From: the human T2T-CHM13v2.0 reference genome, Homo sapiens
DNA: 64,000 nt
Direction: 5' to 3' (one strand)
NCBI RefSeq assembly: GCF_009914755.1
Contig: NC_060941.1
Shown here piece by piece: positions 2,302 to 40,346 of this stretch. The translations under genes were made by a program, and so were the position numbers. The stretch's first letter is position 1, and the number at the start of each line of letters is the position of its first letter. The notes beneath the pieces were generated by a model, which was not told where the DNA came from, did no database searches, and saw only the letters and a program-made list of their open reading frames with translations.

Positions 2302-3503
2302 TGTATTAGTTTCCTATTGCTGCTATAGCAGATTATCATAAATCTAGTATATTAAAACAACACAGTTTTATTATCTCACATTTCTGGAGGTCAGAAGTCT
2401 GAAATAGGTTTAACTGAGTCAAAAGTCAATGTGTCAGCAGGGTTGGTGTTTTTGGGAGCTCCAGAAGAAAACCCATTTTCTCTTATTTTCCAGCTTCTGG
2501 AGGCTGCCCACATTCCTTGGCTGGTGGCCCCCTTCCATCTTCAAAGCCAGCAATGGCCAGTTGAGTCTTTTATGATGTCACCTCTTCGTTCTGACTTTTC
2601 TGCTTCCCTCCTTCCCACTGAAGGACTCGTGATAGCACTGGGCTCACTTGGGTAATGGAGGATAAGCCCTTATTTTCAAGCCCATTTATTAGTAGCCTTA
2701 TCTCCATCTGCAACCTTAATTCCACCTTGCCACAGCACATATCATGTTCATAGGTTCTGGGGATTAGGATGTGGACATCTGGGATGACTATGGTATAGTA
2801 ATAGTAAGAATAAAAAATATTATCTACCAGCCTTTGTTCCTGGTTTCTGGCATAGCGCTTCAAAAACTTATGAAATTTCTTCAGTGACAGGAGTGTCTTA
2901 GTTATGATAATGAGGTGACTCATAGCTGGGCATCTAGATAGCTTCAGGATGGGAGCTGGTCACCAGAAAACTCCGTCATGTGCTGGAACTTACAGCTGCC
3001 TGACCTCTGGGCAGGTTAGGGGGACTAAAGATTAAGCTTAATCATGTGACCAAAGATTTAGTCAATCATGCCTTTGTGATGAAACGCTGATAAAACAAAA
3101 AAAACAAAACCTCAGGACGCTGAGCCTCACAACGGCGTCTTGGTTGGTGAACACATGGATGTACTCAGAGGGTGGTGCACCCTGATTCCAGGGGGACAGA
3201 AGCTCCTGCGCTTGGACCCGAGTTCTGTGAATCATTCTAGTGAATTATCAAACCTGAAGAGGGGGGTCATGGGAATCCTCAAATTTATACCCAAGTTATA
3301 TATAAGGGCAGGTGTTCTGTGGACCTCACTTGCAGCTGGTGTCTGAAGTAAAGGAGAGTCTTATTAGGGACCCTGTCCTTTAATTTTTTAGATTAATGCT
3401 AACTCTGGGTAGTTAGTGTAAGAACTGAATTGAATTGTAGGACACTTAGCTGATGTTAGAGAGTTGCTGTTGCTATGCAGAGGCCACTATTCTGCCTAGT
3501 ACA
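2302..3503 (-). mobile_element. MLT1 (MaLR) LTR interrupted by MER21
   Basis: TGTATTAGTTTCCTATTGCTGCT start, GGATTAGGATGTGGACATCT then GGCCACTATTCTGCCTAGTACA; perfect 5-bp TSD CCTGC (2297-2301, 3504-3508). Confidence 0.85.
2790..3475 (+). mobile_element. MER21-type LTR
   Basis: CTTTGTTCCTGGTTTCTGGCATAG..., TTGGTTGGTGAACACATGGATGTACT..., GAATTGAATTGTAGGACAC motifs; boundaries approximate. Confidence 0.75.
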
Positions 3504-6131: not shown

Positions 6132-6810
<679 letters not shown>

Positions 6811-34017: not shown

Positions 34018-35548
34018 TTAATTCAGGTATATAAATGGCCAAGGTAGAAGATATCAAAATGAGGTGGATTTGATTTCTCATGTGAGACTCATAGCTAATT
34101 TAAATGAAAATTTAAATAAGATTTATTTGACATGATTGGGAACAATTCAATTCAACTTTACAAACACTGATTAAATGTCTACCATCTGGTAGGCACCGTG
34201 CTAAGTGAGTCTCCAAACCTGAACTGTGATTATAAAGGGCATTTATAAACTTTCCCTCAAAGATAGGACATTTGCCCATGTAATCATGCCATCTTTAAAA
34301 GCATCACTCTAAATTATTTAGGTGACTTCTAACTTTGCCCAGTACTCTGTCCCCAGCACCTAGGATTGCACCTGGAAGATGAGAAGCACTTATTAGGTAT
34401 TTGTGGTGTAAATAGGGAATGACTGAAGCAGTACCTCTAACCCAAAACCCTAACATGAAAGAGCAGACTGTAGTATCTGAAAGCCAATTTGTAGTAGGGT
34501 TACTATCAATCCTCAGTAACAGACCAAGGAGAATATTTTAGAAAAAACTGGCCTAAAATAAATGTCAGCTAGTAATCTATTTCTTGACGATTTGGGCTTT
34601 AGCTAGTTAATTGTGGAATTTCTCTGTTCTGATTACATAATTTCAAAGGAGATAAGTTAGAAAATAGACTTTATTCACACTAAAAAATGGCAGTGTCAGA
34701 GATTTACATGGAACTCTGGAGAGGCAGAAATGTTTGCCCCCTTTTTCTATGGATGTGAAGGAGCAAGGGCCTGTTTTCCCTTTAGCATATGGTTACTAGA
34801 CAAGACTATGGGTAGGGAAGTCTCAGGGGCGATGATGATGTGTTCCTCTTCTAACACAAATTTCTTGAACAAATATTAATAGCAAACATATTCCATGCAA
34901 ATGGAATATTCCATGCAAATGATATGTCCATATCAGCACAAAGGTCTGATAAGCACAATTGTCACCAATTACTACAGATCTGTTTATCACTTTTTTAGAT
35001 CCTGAAAAATGGAGAGTTAAAAGGATACCCATTTATTTAATGAATAAGTTTCTCTGTAATAACTAGAATTACAACTAGAATCTCTCTGTTTTCAAGGAAG
35101 TCATATGATCTGAAGAAGTACAGCAGAGTGCACAACACATTTTGTTACTGAGGATTACAGTAAAAAGTCAAGGACAAAAGCTATTTTCCATGCCAGAATT
35201 ATCAGATGCAGGAGTAAAATTCTAGCACATGAGCAAGGACTCTACATCTATTGGTTACAAATGACATCATGCTTTCTAAAGAATCATGCTCATTTTTCCT
35301 GTTTCTACCAAATTGCATAGTCTGGAGCTCCCTCTCCTGGATTAACATGATTTTATCAATTTCTTCATACTATAAACCAGAGAGGCAGAATTTATCCACA
35401 GCAACAAATCATTTAATGAATGTTTATGACTTTTCTTTCTTATTAAAGGGGACATTCTTTTATCCCAACATATAAAGTCGTTGAACTCCATCAAACAATA
35501 AGGAGAACCTCACAGATAAAAGGAAGAAGGTGTCATTAAACACATTAC

Positions 35549-35719
35549 CTTTCGGCTGGAAAAATGGGCGTGTTTGCCCAATTTACTGTTAAGTGCTTCA
35601 AGAAACATTTCATCGGTGACTTTGCCGACATTCATGCAAGCATCATCAAGGATTGCAATGATCCCTTTGTGCTGTTGCTCCACGAGGTCAACAATGATCT
35701 GATTGTTGAAGTAGTCAAT
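35549..35719 (-). CDS. MYO1D: Myosin-Id coding exon 11 (171 nt)
   Basis: [57 protein letters not shown]. Confidence 0.97.
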
Positions 35720-36169
35720 CTGTAGGACACAGCAAGGAGGGAATTCTGAAGAGAACAGTGACCAGGCCAGGTTAAACCCTGATGCCCCCATTTGTATCAG
35801 GAGTTCAGGTAAAACTACTTTGGTGTCAAATGTGTGAATAACATTAAAGAGGTCTTACGCTAAAAAGAGTACACATTCTAACAGAGGTTTATTTTTAAAT
35901 TCCTTTGTTAACTTTCTATCATGAAATACACCGTCTGAGATTAGTACAGCCCAAGGCAAAGATAATAAGGTAGACACCATTTCTCCCATTACAAACTCAT
36001 TTTAATCCTGCCTCCAGATCCCACACCCAACCCTACTCCTTCATACCAATCTGCCTGCCATTAACTGTAAGGTCCACCTTCCACAAAGGGCCAACAAATA
36101 ACCTTAAAGTATTATCTGATATACTACTTCATAATAAAGTTAAGGTACTACACAAAACTTGCAATTTTA

Positions 36170-36647
36170 TAAAAGTAGGGTACAAGTTAAATGTTTAGTT
36201 CTAGAAATTTTGTGCAATATGTTCATAACGATGGCTGCAGTTGCCACAAAGTGCCTCGTTTACCTTTAAATACTGTTAATGTGTCACGCATGCAGATGGA
36301 AGGGGTGGAACTGTGCACTAAAGTGGGGGCTTTAACTGTAGTGTTTGGCAGAGTTGCCTTCTACCTGCCAGTTCAAAAGTTCTGTTTTCATGCAGAATAT
36401 ATATACTAAAAAATTTCAGTCTTTTAAACAGCCTTACTCTGATTCAGCCTCTTCAGATACTCTTGTGCTGTGCAGTAGTGGCTCTATGTGTAAATGCCAT
36501 GCACTGAGGGTACACAAAAATATCAACATTATGTGTACAGGATAATGCCTCATCCCAATCAGATGTCCATTTGTCATTGTGTTTGTTAACAACCCTTTAT
36601 CTCTTAGTGTTAAATAAACTCCACTTAAAACGGAAAAAAAAAAAAAA
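36170..36647 (+). pseudogene. 5'-truncated processed retrocopy of an mRNA 3' end, recognised as the distal PTEN 3'UTR
   Basis: A14 tail at 36634-36647, AATAAA at 36613-36618, flanking direct repeat AACTTGCA(A/T)TTTTA at 36156-36169 and 36649-36662; body matches my recollection of the PTEN mRNA terminus (TGCCACAAAGTGCCTCGTTTACC...CCCTTTATCTCTTAGTGTT..AAACTCCACTTAAAAC). Confidence 0.85.
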
Positions 36648-37335
36648 GAACTTGCATTTTTAGTTACATGACCCTGAATGACTAAAATCCAAAAGAGCAT
36701 TTCTTTTGGTTTCCCCAAAGTTAAAAAGCTTCAATAGAATTTTGAACAATTTGAAAAAATTCAGTAGAATTTTTACATTTTTCTAGGCATAATATAAAGA
36801 ATTTAATTCTGAGAAATAAATATCTATAAAAGATAAGAAAAAGCTTTTCCTTTACTTCCACAAGGTGAATGAAGTTATAAATAACTTCTGGCTTTTCAGC
36901 AACTATACATGTACAAGGTTTGTCCAACAATCCTCTGCCACACCTGTTTATTCTGACAGCCTGCAATGTACCTATCACTACACACAGAAGGCACACAAAG
37001 AAAGGCCAACTCAGGCAAGCTGCACATCTCAAAGAGGGGCAGCTTATGATCACACAGTTTAATCTTGCTATGTCCCATCTTACGCAGGAGTTACCTAAAC
37101 TGATTGCTGTCTCCATTACCTTCTATAAGGTCTATATACTCATAATAGACCATTCAAGTGACTCATGTATTCCCATTTCATGCTTTAAAATCCAAGGTTT
37201 TATGCCAGTTATTTGTACATGGCTTTTAGCTCCATTTCTAGTCTTGCATGTTCTCTTCTGTATCTTATGGACTGAAACCTGTAAACTGGGTAGTTTTTAC
37301 TTTGTTTTTTATACTTTTCTGATCTGTCTAAACTA

Positions 37336-37552
37336 AAGTTTCTCAAATAGGGGAATAGGGGGAATTTTGCTCACCAGGGGACATTTGGCAATATCAGGAG
37401 ACATTTCTAGTCAAAATGGGGTAGGGGTGCTACTGTCATTTGGTGGGTAGAGGCCAGGGGTGCTGCTAAACATCCTACAATGCATAGAACAGCCTCCACA
37501 ACAAAGAACTATCTGGCACAAAATCTCAGTAGTACTGAGGTGAAGCAGTGTA
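37336..37552 (+). mobile_element. MER20 (hAT-Charlie) DNA transposon
   Basis: GGGGACATTTGGCAAT...GGGTAGAGGCCAGGGGTGCTGCTAAACATCCTACAATGCA. Confidence 0.85.
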
Positions 37553-38089
37553 GGTCTAAATATTTACTTTCATTATGGGCATTTATTACATTTCTAATTA
37601 GGGAGAAAAGTTATTTCCATCTTTGGAAAAAAAATCCTAAAAATACTCAAAAAGCAGGAGCTCTATATTAATAGTTGACATCTTAGACTTCGGGACTGTG
37701 AAATTAAAGACGAAGTCTTTTGTCCCAGGGACTAAAGAATTACCTTCCCTAAAATCCCAATTATATTATTAAAAGCTATTGGTCTCTGCTAGTAACTTTC
37801 AGTTTGTAAGTTTAATACTGCTTCAAACATTGCTTAAACCAGTAGTTTTCAAACTAAGTTCTTCCAGCAACTTGGCATTCCCGTAAGGTTTCCTAAGGGA
37901 TACCAGGAGCCAGAAGACTTGTGATGGGGTAGCTTAGGGACATGGGGCTCTGGCCTTTCATACCCACTCCAGATAAAACAGCTTTGTGCTTGAGTATCAA
38001 GTTCTCAATAGATAAAATGATTTGCAAACTACAGCATCGAAAGCTTTTAAAAGTGAATGTACCAGATAACCAGACATTATGAACCTCCT

Positions 38090-38785
38090 GGTGGAAGTTC
38101 ACACACAGTCTATGAAATGGGCTGTGGAAAAAAACTGACTCTGAATCCAGTCAAGACTCTAGATCTAACAACCAATATACAGGACATACAAGAAACAGAG
38201 AAACATATTAAATGGCACCTGAGGAATGCAATTAGCAAAATCCAGACTGTGGGGAACTCCATAACAAATGACTCATTCTCTTCAACACAAGATTGCAAAG
38301 AGAGATCATTCAAGGAAAAAAAGAAACATGGAGAAAATCTATAGATATGCAAGAGACCTATCAATCAATCATAATGTAAGAAACTTATTTGGATCCAAAT
38401 TTAACCTGCAAAACAACAACCAGAAGACAATTAAGGAAATATGAAACATGTATACTGACTGGATATTTTATGATATTAAGGAATTTTTGTTAATGTTTTA
38501 GGTATGATAATGGCATTGTGATTATGGTTTTTGTAAAACTCTCTTAGAGAAATACATGGAAATATTTACTGAATAGATACCCAATTGAATAGATGAAATA
38601 ATGTGATATCTGAAATTTGCTTCAAAATAATCTGGGAGTAGGTGGGTATAGTACAGATGGCATAAGACTGGCAATCAACTGGTACGTGTTAAAGCCAGGT
38701 GATGGGTATATAGGGTTTACTGTACTATAGTCTGTCTTCTTAATGTGTGTTTAAAATTTTCCATAATAAAAAATCTTTTAAAAAG
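38090..38785 (+). mobile_element. L1MC-type 3' end
   Basis: GCAAAATCCAGACTGTGGG, GGATATTTTATGATATTAAGGAATT, TTTCCATAATAAAA. Confidence 0.7.
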
Positions 38786-40346
38786 AATCACTATGTTTAG
38801 AAGTTTGGGGTTTTACCCAGAATAGAGATTCTAATTGTGGGGGGATCTGCCATGTAGTAAGTAACTGTTACCTTGGAGTTAGCCTTCTGCTCCCTCTAGG
38901 ACAAATAGTTCTTGGTTTATTTAGCGAAAATTTTTTGCATTTTGGGATTCTTAATTCTTTTTGAGATGTTTGGAACAGTCCACTGCATTACTTACCCTGT
39001 TGTCAATTATGTCTGTGAAATTTGATATTCTGATTGTGAAAGGATATTTTTGACTAGTACCTTGGAATCACATTTGAATAACAAGTTTTATGATTAAATT
39101 TGGTATTAAAAATCCAAGCTTCAGTTATACCGTGTATTATATTATACAACAGTTTCATTCTTAGAAAGCTTCATATACACTTAATTGAACTGAATTAAAT
39201 TTTAATTGTATTAGGAGAGTTCATTATTTAAGTCAAACTATAGATAATTCTTATATAAAATAGCCCTTTGGTTTATATGCAGATAGGTAAAATTTATGCC
39301 AATATACCTGAGCAACTGTTTTATGGTATTCTAACGTTTAACACATGATGGAAGGCAGATACAATTTTGAGGCGGGAAAGCTATTTGTTATATCATTGTC
39401 TCTTTATTTCAGAATGAGAGGAAATAGAAAATAGGTAGGAAGGAAGATAAAAGTCATTTAAATATAGTATTTCAAATATTTTTTTGCTGCTATTATATTG
39501 GATAACAAAAAACAAATACTGGCTTCATTTCTATTCTCTGGCAAGAGGATGAACAATCATATAAACTCAAACTACAGAAACTTAAAAGTTTTTGTATTTT
39601 TCAAGTTTATTCTCAAAATTGCTTAAAAATACAAACTTACAAGAAAAATTACTATGTCTCATTTCTATCATAAACAGAAGGTCTTATCACAGGAAATTTA
39701 AAAACCAAACAAGTCATGCCTTTTAGCTTTGATCTCTGTGGTTTGCACTGTGCACCCATTATACTTTCCAGCTATATCTTACCAGATTAGTTTGCCTCTG
39801 ACAAATACAAAAGTTCCCAAAGATTGATTAGAGTAGAGGTGATAATTGAAGTGTAATACACAAGAAAATGCAAAGTAAAACAAGTATTTTAATGTGTAGG
39901 TTTCAGAGAATATAAACAACATTAACTGAAGACAATAAAATACCATATAGTCTACAAAGTAGAAGAGGAGAAAAAGGAGGAAAAAGGGAAGAAGAAACTA
40001 GATTCTGAAGCAAAGTTCAGCCAATTTAAGGTATAACTTAATAAAGTATGCTAAACCTAACAGACAGATATAAACCAGTAAGTCCACGTGGTAGCAGCCA
40101 TAAAGTGAAAACAGGTTTACTGGTTCTAACTCAGGATGTTCTGGGCATCAACAAGGCAGTCTATCAAATTATAGCAATCCCACCTAAAAATGATGAAATT
40201 AATTGTATTTACATATCCCAAAAAGGAAAGCTAAGGTTCAGATGTTTCAAATACCCCCAAAAGATCAAGAAATACCTAAAATAAAATTTGACATTATCAA
40301 TAATATGAGAAACACATGAAGGCATTTTCCATAAGAGTCCACTCAC

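What the first reader, a model, noticed from the sequence alone, without database searches (positions are those of the whole stretch)
36156..36662. Retrocopy of the distal PTEN 3'UTR hidden in MYO1D intron 10, antisense to the host gene
Seen: ~465 nt that match no repeat I recognise, ending in AATAAA, 15 nt and an A14 tail, flanked by a 14-bp direct repeat with 1 mismatch. This is the signature of L1-mediated retroposition. Recalled: the body closely matches the last ~500 nt of the long PTEN mRNA 3'UTR, with scattered substitutions. It has no coding sequence, so ORF-based pseudogene pipelines would miss it, and it is separate from the known PTENP1 locus. Inference: each MYO1D pre-mRNA carries ~465 nt complementary to PTEN/PTENP1 3'UTR RNA, which allows duplex formation in trans. 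It could also cause cross-mapping of PTEN probes, siRNAs or reads.
Basis: partly seen in the sequence, partly recalled or inferred. Interest (0 to 1): 0.85.

Follow-up and report, generated by a model that had tools for sequence, protein, structure and literature searches.

The report
PTEN 3'UTR retrocopy in MYO1D intron
A 466-base stretch in a MYO1D intron is an old, 5'-truncated, reverse-transcribed copy of part of the PTEN messenger RNA's untranslated tail, an ordinary kind of genomic fossil with no sign of a function.

Summary
Window 36169-36634 (+) matches PTEN 3'UTR nt 2815-3282, counted from the stop codon, at 447/470 identity (E 1.4e-211). The differences are 17 substitutions, a 4-nt deletion and a 2-nt insertion. 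An A14 tail that the parent does not template follows, and a 14-bp target-site duplication (13/14) abuts both ends. It lies antisense in a 4.6-kb MYO1D intron, probably intron 10.

Three corrections:
- The AATAAA is not parental. PTEN and three other PTEN-tail retrocopies (chr5, chr2, chr18) read TATAAA, and a 2-nt insertion private to this copy made AATAAA.
- The copy ends 20 nt upstream of the cleavage site recorded by the other three. Both ends lie in the published 3.3-kb polyadenylation cluster.
- PTENP1 covers only UTR nt 1-1086. This copy therefore has no PTENP1 counterpart and comes from PTEN itself.

Divergence (K2P 0.038, mostly private to the copy) suggests an age of roughly 17-38 Myr.

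No tool result supports trans duplex regulation of PTEN. Antisense intronic retrocopies are common. No exon overlaps it in the supplied RefSeq table, and no Rfam family matches it. I read it as a neutral 5'-truncated processed-pseudogene fragment. Its practical relevance is limited to cross-hybridisation: perfect runs reach 55 nt. I could not check pseudogene or retrocopy catalogues or primate genomes.

The parts
36156..36169 (+). 5' target-site duplication, AACTTGCAATTTTA. The last A is ambiguous with the first base of the PTEN homology. Preceded by AA, so the bottom-strand nick site reads TTTT/G.
   Evidence: chance 1.6e-7 at a fixed offset.
36169..36634 (+). Retrocopy body, equal to PTEN 3'UTR nt 2815-3282 after the stop codon (T2T chr10:88852188-88852655). 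447/470 identical: 17 substitutions (13 transitions, 4 transversions), a 4-nt deletion after 36381 and a 2-nt insertion at 36612-36613.
36613..36618 (+). AATAAA hexamer made by the copy-specific AA insertion. The parent and the chr5, chr2 and chr18 copies read TATAAA here (UTR nt 3261-3266).
36634..36647 (+). A14 poly(A) tail, not templated by the PTEN gene, which continues with ATTAAA and 15 more nt to the major cleavage site.
36649..36662 (+). 3' target-site duplication, AACTTGCATTTTTA.
35720..40346 (-). Host MYO1D intron (4627 nt, GTGAGT...CAG on the minus strand), probably intron 10 of NM_015194.3. The retrocopy is antisense to it.
   Evidence: Hub gene table.

Best explanation
This is a 5'-truncated processed-pseudogene fragment. 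A polyadenylated PTEN mRNA of the 3.3-kb-UTR class was cleaved about 15-16 nt after the TATAAA hexamer. LINE-1 machinery reverse-transcribed it by target-primed reverse transcription at a TTTT/G nick in unique DNA of a MYO1D intron. Copying stopped after about 466 nt. The result is a UTR-only insert with an A tail and a 14-16 bp target-site duplication.

It has since drifted neutrally by 17 substitutions and 2 indels. One of those indels created the AATAAA by chance. I estimate the insertion at roughly 17-38 Myr ago, in an ancestor of catarrhine or anthropoid primates.

It is transcribed only passively, as the antisense part of the MYO1D intron, is spliced out and degraded, and has no function.

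Shown: identity, parent, boundaries, tail, target-site duplication and orientation. Inferred: the LINE-1 mechanism, the age and the lack of function.
For: - Parent and collinearity: 95% identity over UTR nt 2815-3282, E 9e-211. The chr10 locus is identified as PTEN exon 9 by the ORF ending in the protein's C-terminus and by the match to 7jvx_A.
- The tail is not templated. PTEN continues with ATTAAA plus 15 nt where the copy has A14.
- The 13/14 target-site duplication abuts both ends exactly.
- The flanks are single-copy.
- The 3' end lies in a published polyadenylation cluster at 3.3 kb, functional in human and mouse cells (PMC6212768, passages read).
- Three further independent copies (chr5, chr2, chr18) have A-rich tails and end at nt 3302.
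- Neutral drift: at 8 of the 9 substitutions in the 166 nt shared with other copies, at least one other copy agrees with PTEN, so those changes are private to this copy. The transition to transversion count is 13:4.
- No sign of function: 0 Rfam matches at E<=1 in 35500-37300. The hub table lists no exon and no functional element there.
- About 40% of retrocopies lie in introns of other genes (review PMC8071448, passages read).
Against: - Lack of function is inferred from absence of evidence. I had no expression, conservation, editing or RNA-RNA interaction data.
- Absence of introns, the usual proof of an RNA intermediate, cannot be tested because the copied segment lies within one exon.
- The nick site is TTTT/G rather than the textbook TTTT/A (consensus recalled, not tested here).
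- One substitution (nt 3160, G) is shared with the chr2 copy. Some divergence may therefore lie on the PTEN lineage, which would make the copy younger than estimated.
Confidence: 0.9

Rival explanations
1. Trans natural antisense regulation. The antisense copy in the MYO1D pre-mRNA or its excised intron pairs with long-UTR PTEN transcripts in the nucleus. The duplex would trigger A-to-I editing, nuclear retention or small-RNA production, coupling PTEN dosage to MYO1D transcription.
For: Orientation and complementarity are real. Perfect runs of 55, 52, 48, 47, 44, 38, 36 and 29 nt exist. The computed heteroduplex energy is -806 kcal/mol, against -99.8 and -105.2 for the two strands folded alone. 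Retrocopy-derived antisense RNAs acting on parent genes are discussed in the review PMC8071448 (passages read), including an antisense PTENP1 RNA acting on PTEN.
Against: No call gives evidence of pairing in vivo. The cases listed in the review involve retrocopy sequence that is part of mature transcripts, and here no exon overlaps the insert (hub table). Introns are short-lived and nuclear. The sequence drifts like neutral DNA. Only PTEN isoforms with UTRs of 3.3 kb or more carry the target. Literature searches found no paper that links the two genes in this way: one search returned 6 papers, one search listed 12 of 19, and one search listed 15 of 601. Judged by title and abstract start, none concerns it.
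Confidence: 0.03
2. Sense-strand transcription of the copy gives a small PTEN-UTR-like RNA that competes for microRNAs or RNA-binding proteins, as reported for PTENP1.
For: The copy keeps 95% identity to a UTR segment and now carries an AATAAA on the + strand.
Against: No + strand gene is listed here. The nearest + strand lncRNA begins about 70 kb away (hub table). A 5'-truncated retrocopy carries no promoter. I ran no promoter or microRNA-site analysis.
Confidence: 0.02
3. The antisense insert supplies a cryptic MYO1D exon. On the minus strand, the T14 tract followed by AG (36625-36624) would act as an acceptor and GTAAGG (36437-36432) as a donor, giving a 186-nt cassette.
For: The motifs are read from the minus-strand sequence. 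Antisense retrocopies have donated cassette exons to host genes (PMC2584115, passages read).
Against: The hub table lists no such exon among the 7 transcripts; the only extra exon is 39869-40183. I did not score the splice sites.
Confidence: 0.03
4. The copy arose by DNA-level duplication, or from PTENP1 rather than from PTEN mRNA.
For: None beyond the similarity itself.
Against: Homology stops exactly at an untemplated A14 tail and at a target-site duplication. PTENP1 matches only UTR nt 1-1086.
Confidence: 0.01

Closest known systems
PTENP1 (processed pseudogene of PTEN, T2T chr9:33692871-33693950 for its UTR part)
   Same: Retrocopy of PTEN mRNA on another chromosome, 97% identical to the parent over the part compared.
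   Different: PTENP1 carries the coding region and only UTR nt 1-1086, so the two copies share no sequence. PTENP1 is transcribed in both directions and has reported decoy and antisense roles (review PMC8071448, passages read). The MYO1D copy is UTR-only, 466 nt, intronic, and has no transcript of its own.
Other 3'-end PTEN UTR retrocopies in the same genome: chr5:178892482-178892667, chr2:53526797-53526948 (-) and chr18:44533595-44533636
   Same: 5'-truncated copies of the same 3.3-kb-UTR mRNA class, each followed by an A-rich tail.
   Different: They are shorter (186, 152 and 42 nt) and end at nt 3302, 15 nt after ATTAAA. The MYO1D copy ends at nt 3282, 15-16 nt after TATAAA.
Intronic antisense retrocopies proposed as trans antisense regulators, for example KRT18P29 in PPP1R1C (review PMC8071448)
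   Same: A retrocopy antisense to its host gene, so host transcripts carry sequence complementary to the parent mRNA.
   Different: In that example a 63-bp piece is an exon of mature host isoforms. Here the insert is purely intronic in the supplied annotation.

Membership tests
LINE-1-mediated processed pseudogene / retrocopy | Collinear with the mature mRNA of a parent gene located elsewhere | tested here: met
   447/470 identity to PTEN 3'UTR nt 2815-3282 on chr10; the copy is on chr17.
LINE-1-mediated processed pseudogene / retrocopy | Parental introns absent | not testable with these tools
   The copied segment lies wholly within PTEN's last exon, so no intron could be missing.
LINE-1-mediated processed pseudogene / retrocopy | 3' end at a parental polyadenylation site, followed by an untemplated poly(A) tail | tested here: met
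   A14 lies where PTEN reads ATTAAAGTC.... The end falls in the 3.3-kb signal cluster of PMC6212768, 20 nt upstream of the end recorded by three other copies.
LINE-1-mediated processed pseudogene / retrocopy | Target-site duplication of about 7-20 bp abutting both ends | tested here: met
   14 bp, 13/14 identical, at 36156-36169 and 36649-36662.
LINE-1-mediated processed pseudogene / retrocopy | Endonuclease nick site resembling TTTT/A on the bottom strand (consensus recalled) | tested here: inconclusive
   The pre-insertion site reads CACAAAAC on the top strand, which is TTTT/G on the bottom strand. The four T are present but the following A is not.
Copy of PTENP1 rather than of PTEN | Sequence overlap with PTENP1 | tested here: not met
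   PTENP1 matches UTR nt 1-1086 only. A search with the insert gave no chr9 hit.
Trans natural antisense transcript acting on PTEN | A stable transcript carries the complement, and the two RNAs pair in cells | not testable with these tools
   Only the complementarity is shown. No exon overlaps the insert in the hub table. No expression or interaction data were available.
Interspersed repeat family | Many dispersed copies in the genome | tested here: not met
   Searching the insert gave 4 places in the genome. Searching the whole 3.3-kb UTR gave 5 places that match the part of the UTR this insert covers: PTEN itself, this copy, and the chr5, chr2 and chr18 copies. The tool warns that its counts are lower bounds.

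The most novel reading that the evidence does not exclude
MYO1D transcription continuously supplies a nuclear 466-nt antisense RNA specific for PTEN isoforms with long UTRs (3.3 kb or more) and blind to PTENP1. The pairing would lead to editing, nuclear retention or small-RNA production. PTEN dosage in catarrhine primates would then be tuned by an unrelated host gene through an intron-borne UTR retrocopy.
Probability: 0.03. Interest if true: 0.6.

Novelty: new member of a known kind. Interest (0 to 1): 0.15.

Why it matters
The finding is mostly of practical and descriptive value.
- The insert and its shorter relatives on chr5, chr2 and chr18 are off-target sites for probes, primers and short reads aimed at the end of the 3.3-kb PTEN UTR. 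Perfect runs reach 55 nt.
- The copies act as a fossil record of germline PTEN mRNA 3' ends. They show two cleavage positions 20 nt apart in the 3.3-kb cluster, and shorter isoforms ending near 0.9 and 1.1 kb.
- The finding illustrates that UTR-only retrocopies escape protein-based pseudogene finders, a point already made in print (PMC2584115).
- It would matter biologically only if the antisense pairing idea were shown experimentally.

Tried and rejected
- Rfam scan of 35500-37300 at E<=1: 0 matches.
- Repeat-family reading: rejected, because the insert has few copies and the flanks are single-copy.
- PTENP1 as parent: rejected.
- The first multiple alignment used the wrong strand for the chr2 locus and aligned it badly. 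I redid it with the right strand.
- Soft-masking as a clue to repeat status: window.fa is all upper case, so it tells nothing.
- Literature on this copy. 'PTEN, MYO1D, pseudogene' returned 6 papers, none relevant by title or abstract start. 'PTEN, retrocopy, PTENP1' returned 19 papers, 12 listed. In passages from three of those (PMC8071448, PMC6486473 and bioRxiv 10.64898/2026.06.26.734816) PTENP1 is the only PTEN retrocopy named; the preprint also counts 10 PTEN retrocopies in primates without placing them, and its supplements are closed. 'MYO1D' plus retrocopy terms returned 601 papers holding 2 or more terms, 15 listed. The only listed paper holding MYO1D (PMC4122923) concerns a CpG island in intron 1, unrelated to this insert. 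A search on UTR-only truncated pseudogenes found nothing specific.
- Dating by empty site: not possible, because no primate genome is held.

Full report
**Observation**

- AATAAA lies at 36613-36618, followed by 15 nt and then fourteen A at 36634-36647.
- A 14-bp direct repeat sits at 36156-36169 (AACTTGCAATTTTA) and 36649-36662 (AACTTGCATTTTTA), with 13 of 14 positions identical. The repeat finder reports it inside family D1.
- A 14-mer with at most one mismatch at one fixed offset has probability 1.6e-7.

**Identity of the body**

The window's assembly is held as G000, and the window is C17:33666001-33730000. I searched 36156-36662 against it. It matched four places:
- itself;
- C10:88852188-88852655, at 95% identity over query nt 14-479, E 1.4e-211;
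- C5:178892482-178892647;
- C2:53526817-53526948.

To name the chr10 locus I fetched C10:88843000-88852999. A + strand open frame ends at locus position 6371 and is followed by a stop codon. Its 61 residues match PDB chain 7jvx_A at residues 343-381, E 6.6e-30. The depositors name that chain phosphatidylinositol 3,4,5-trisphosphate 3-phosphatase and dual-specificity protein phosphatase; the output cuts the name off, and I know the protein as PTEN from recall. The chr10 locus is therefore the last PTEN exon.

Counting from the first base after the stop codon, the MYO1D insert corresponds to 3'UTR nt 2815-3282.

**Alignment detail**
- 447 of 470 columns are identical.
- There are 17 substitutions in 464 ungapped positions: 13 transitions and 4 transversions.
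- There is one 4-nt deletion after window 36381.
- There is one 2-nt insertion at 36612-36613.
- Homology starts at 36169, directly after (and sharing one A with) the 5' repeat.
- Homology stops at the first A of the tail.
- PTEN itself continues past that point with ATTAAA and 15 more bases, so the A14 is not templated by the gene.
- The 436-nt 5' flank and the 538-nt 3' flank each match only themselves in the genome. The insertion therefore went into unique intronic DNA.

**What the other copies add**

I searched the first 3326 nt of the PTEN UTR against the genome. The PTEN-derived matches were:
- PTEN itself;
- PTENP1 on chr9, UTR nt 1-1086 only, 97% identical;
- a copy at chr17:57.24 Mb;
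- the MYO1D copy, nt 2815-3282;
- a chr5 copy, nt 3117-3302;
- a chr2 copy, nt 3151-3302;
- a 42-nt chr18 copy, nt 3261-3302.

The remaining matches were short (34-61 nt) hits to nt 2370-2430, which I did not examine.

The chr5, chr2 and chr18 copies each run into an A-rich tail directly after nt 3302. That position is 15 nt after ATTAAA (nt 3282-3287).

The MYO1D copy ends at nt 3282, which is 15-16 nt after the hexamer at nt 3261-3266. That hexamer reads TATAAA in PTEN and in the chr5, chr2 and chr18 copies. Only the MYO1D copy reads AATAAA, because of its private AA insertion.

Two cleavage positions 20 nt apart fit the 'cluster' of polyadenylation signals at 3.3 kb that 3'RACE and northern blots found in human and mouse cells (PMC6212768, passages read). 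The same paper validated further sites at 5.5 and 6.1 kb in mouse. The segment is therefore the end of the 3.3-kb isoform and not necessarily of the longest PTEN transcript. My recollection that the current human RefSeq model runs further was not tested.

**Mechanism**

The anatomy has five features:
- the parent mRNA's 3' end;
- an untemplated A tail;
- 5' truncation;
- a 14-16 bp target-site duplication;
- a target that begins with AAAA on the top strand, which is TTTT/G on the nicked strand.

This is the standard product of LINE-1 target-primed reverse transcription acting in trans on a cellular mRNA. That is established knowledge recalled by me; only the sequence features are shown here. 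Absence of introns cannot be used as evidence, because the segment lies inside one exon.

**Age**

The K2P distance is 0.038. The Poisson 95% interval for 17 substitutions is 9.9-27.2, or 2.1-5.9%.

In the 166 nt shared with other copies, the MYO1D copy differs from PTEN at 9 positions. At 8 of those 9, at least one other copy agrees with PTEN, so the change is private to the MYO1D copy. At 1 of 9 (nt 3160) the chr2 copy shares its G. Nearly all the divergence therefore sits on the copy.

With neutral rates of 1.0-2.2e-9 per site per year (recalled values), this gives about 17-38 Myr. That points to an ancestor of catarrhine or anthropoid primates. It is an inference, because no primate genome is available to look for the empty site.

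**Host gene**

MYO1D is on the minus strand (hub table). The insert lies in the 4627-nt intron 35720-40346, which has GTGAGT and CAG ends on the minus strand.

The 14 in-window exons form one open frame of 605 codons. The first of them starts at position 23 of the Pfam Myosin_head profile (E 1.1e-24). About 30 codons lie upstream. I regard this as consistent but not proven.

The insert is antisense, so every MYO1D primary transcript does contain the complement of the PTEN segment.

**Function**

Nothing I could run supports a function.
- Rfam gave 0 matches at E<=1.
- The hub table lists no exon and no functional element over the insert.
- The substitution pattern looks neutral.
- The computed heteroduplex energy is -806 kcal/mol, against -99.8 and -105.2 for the separate folds. 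This only restates the complementarity.
- A review states that almost 40% of human retrocopies lie in introns of other genes. Its example of a candidate trans-antisense regulator (KRT18P29 in PPP1R1C) concerns retrocopy sequence that is an exon of host transcripts (PMC8071448, passages read).

What remains is a cross-hybridisation caveat. Perfect matches of 55, 52, 48, 47, 44, 38, 36 and 29 nt could mislead short probes or short reads.

**Novelty**

I found no paper that mentions this copy (with passages read). These searches cover open-access text only.
- Protein-based pseudogene finders do miss UTR-only and antisense copies. This was said in 2008 by the authors of an mRNA-alignment catalogue of over 12,000 putative retrocopies (PMC2584115, passages read).
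- Whether that catalogue, or GENCODE or RetrogeneDB, lists this locus I could not check.

**Verdict**

This is a real, correctly recognised retrocopy of PTEN's 3.3-kb UTR end. It is one more member of a very common class and most likely inert. Interest is low.

Noticed in passing
L013:1347-2727 (G000 C17:57244241-57245621, +): A second 5'-truncated PTEN retrocopy on chr17. It holds the last ~150 nt of the coding region plus UTR nt 1-904 (93-96% identical). A ~300-bp Alu-like insert with a long T run splits it. It ends in an A10 run 17 nt after ATTAAA, which implies a PTEN mRNA isoform with a ~0.9-kb UTR. PTENP1 ends at UTR nt 1086.
   Followed up: partly
L011:1501-1686 (chr5), L012:1501-1652 (chr2, minus), L014:1501-1542 (chr18): Three short UTR-only PTEN retrocopies (186, 152 and 42 nt; 97%, 97% and 100% identical). 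All end at UTR nt 3302 and run into A-rich tails. The chr18 copy is followed by an (AATA)n-like tail. I did not examine their target-site duplications.
   Followed up: partly
window 36624-36647 and 36432-36438, minus strand: On the MYO1D sense strand the reversed tail gives T14 followed by CCGTTTTAAG, which looks like an acceptor. 186 nt further on lies AGA/GTAAGG, which looks like a donor. This resembles the way antisense Alu tails become exons. The supplied table lists no such exon, and I did not score the sites.
   Followed up: no
PTEN UTR nt 3160 and 3225 (window 36510 and 36575): At nt 3160 the MYO1D and chr2 copies share G where PTEN and the chr5 copy have A. This is either the older PTEN state or a parallel change. 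At nt 3225 the MYO1D copy (C) and the chr5 copy (G) changed independently.
   Followed up: no
PTEN UTR nt 2370-2430 (L005:8744-8804): A short segment of the PTEN UTR matches about a dozen scattered genomic places at 84-97% identity over 34-61 nt (L015-L025). It is presumably a fragment of an old interspersed repeat or a low-complexity tract inside the UTR.
   Followed up: no
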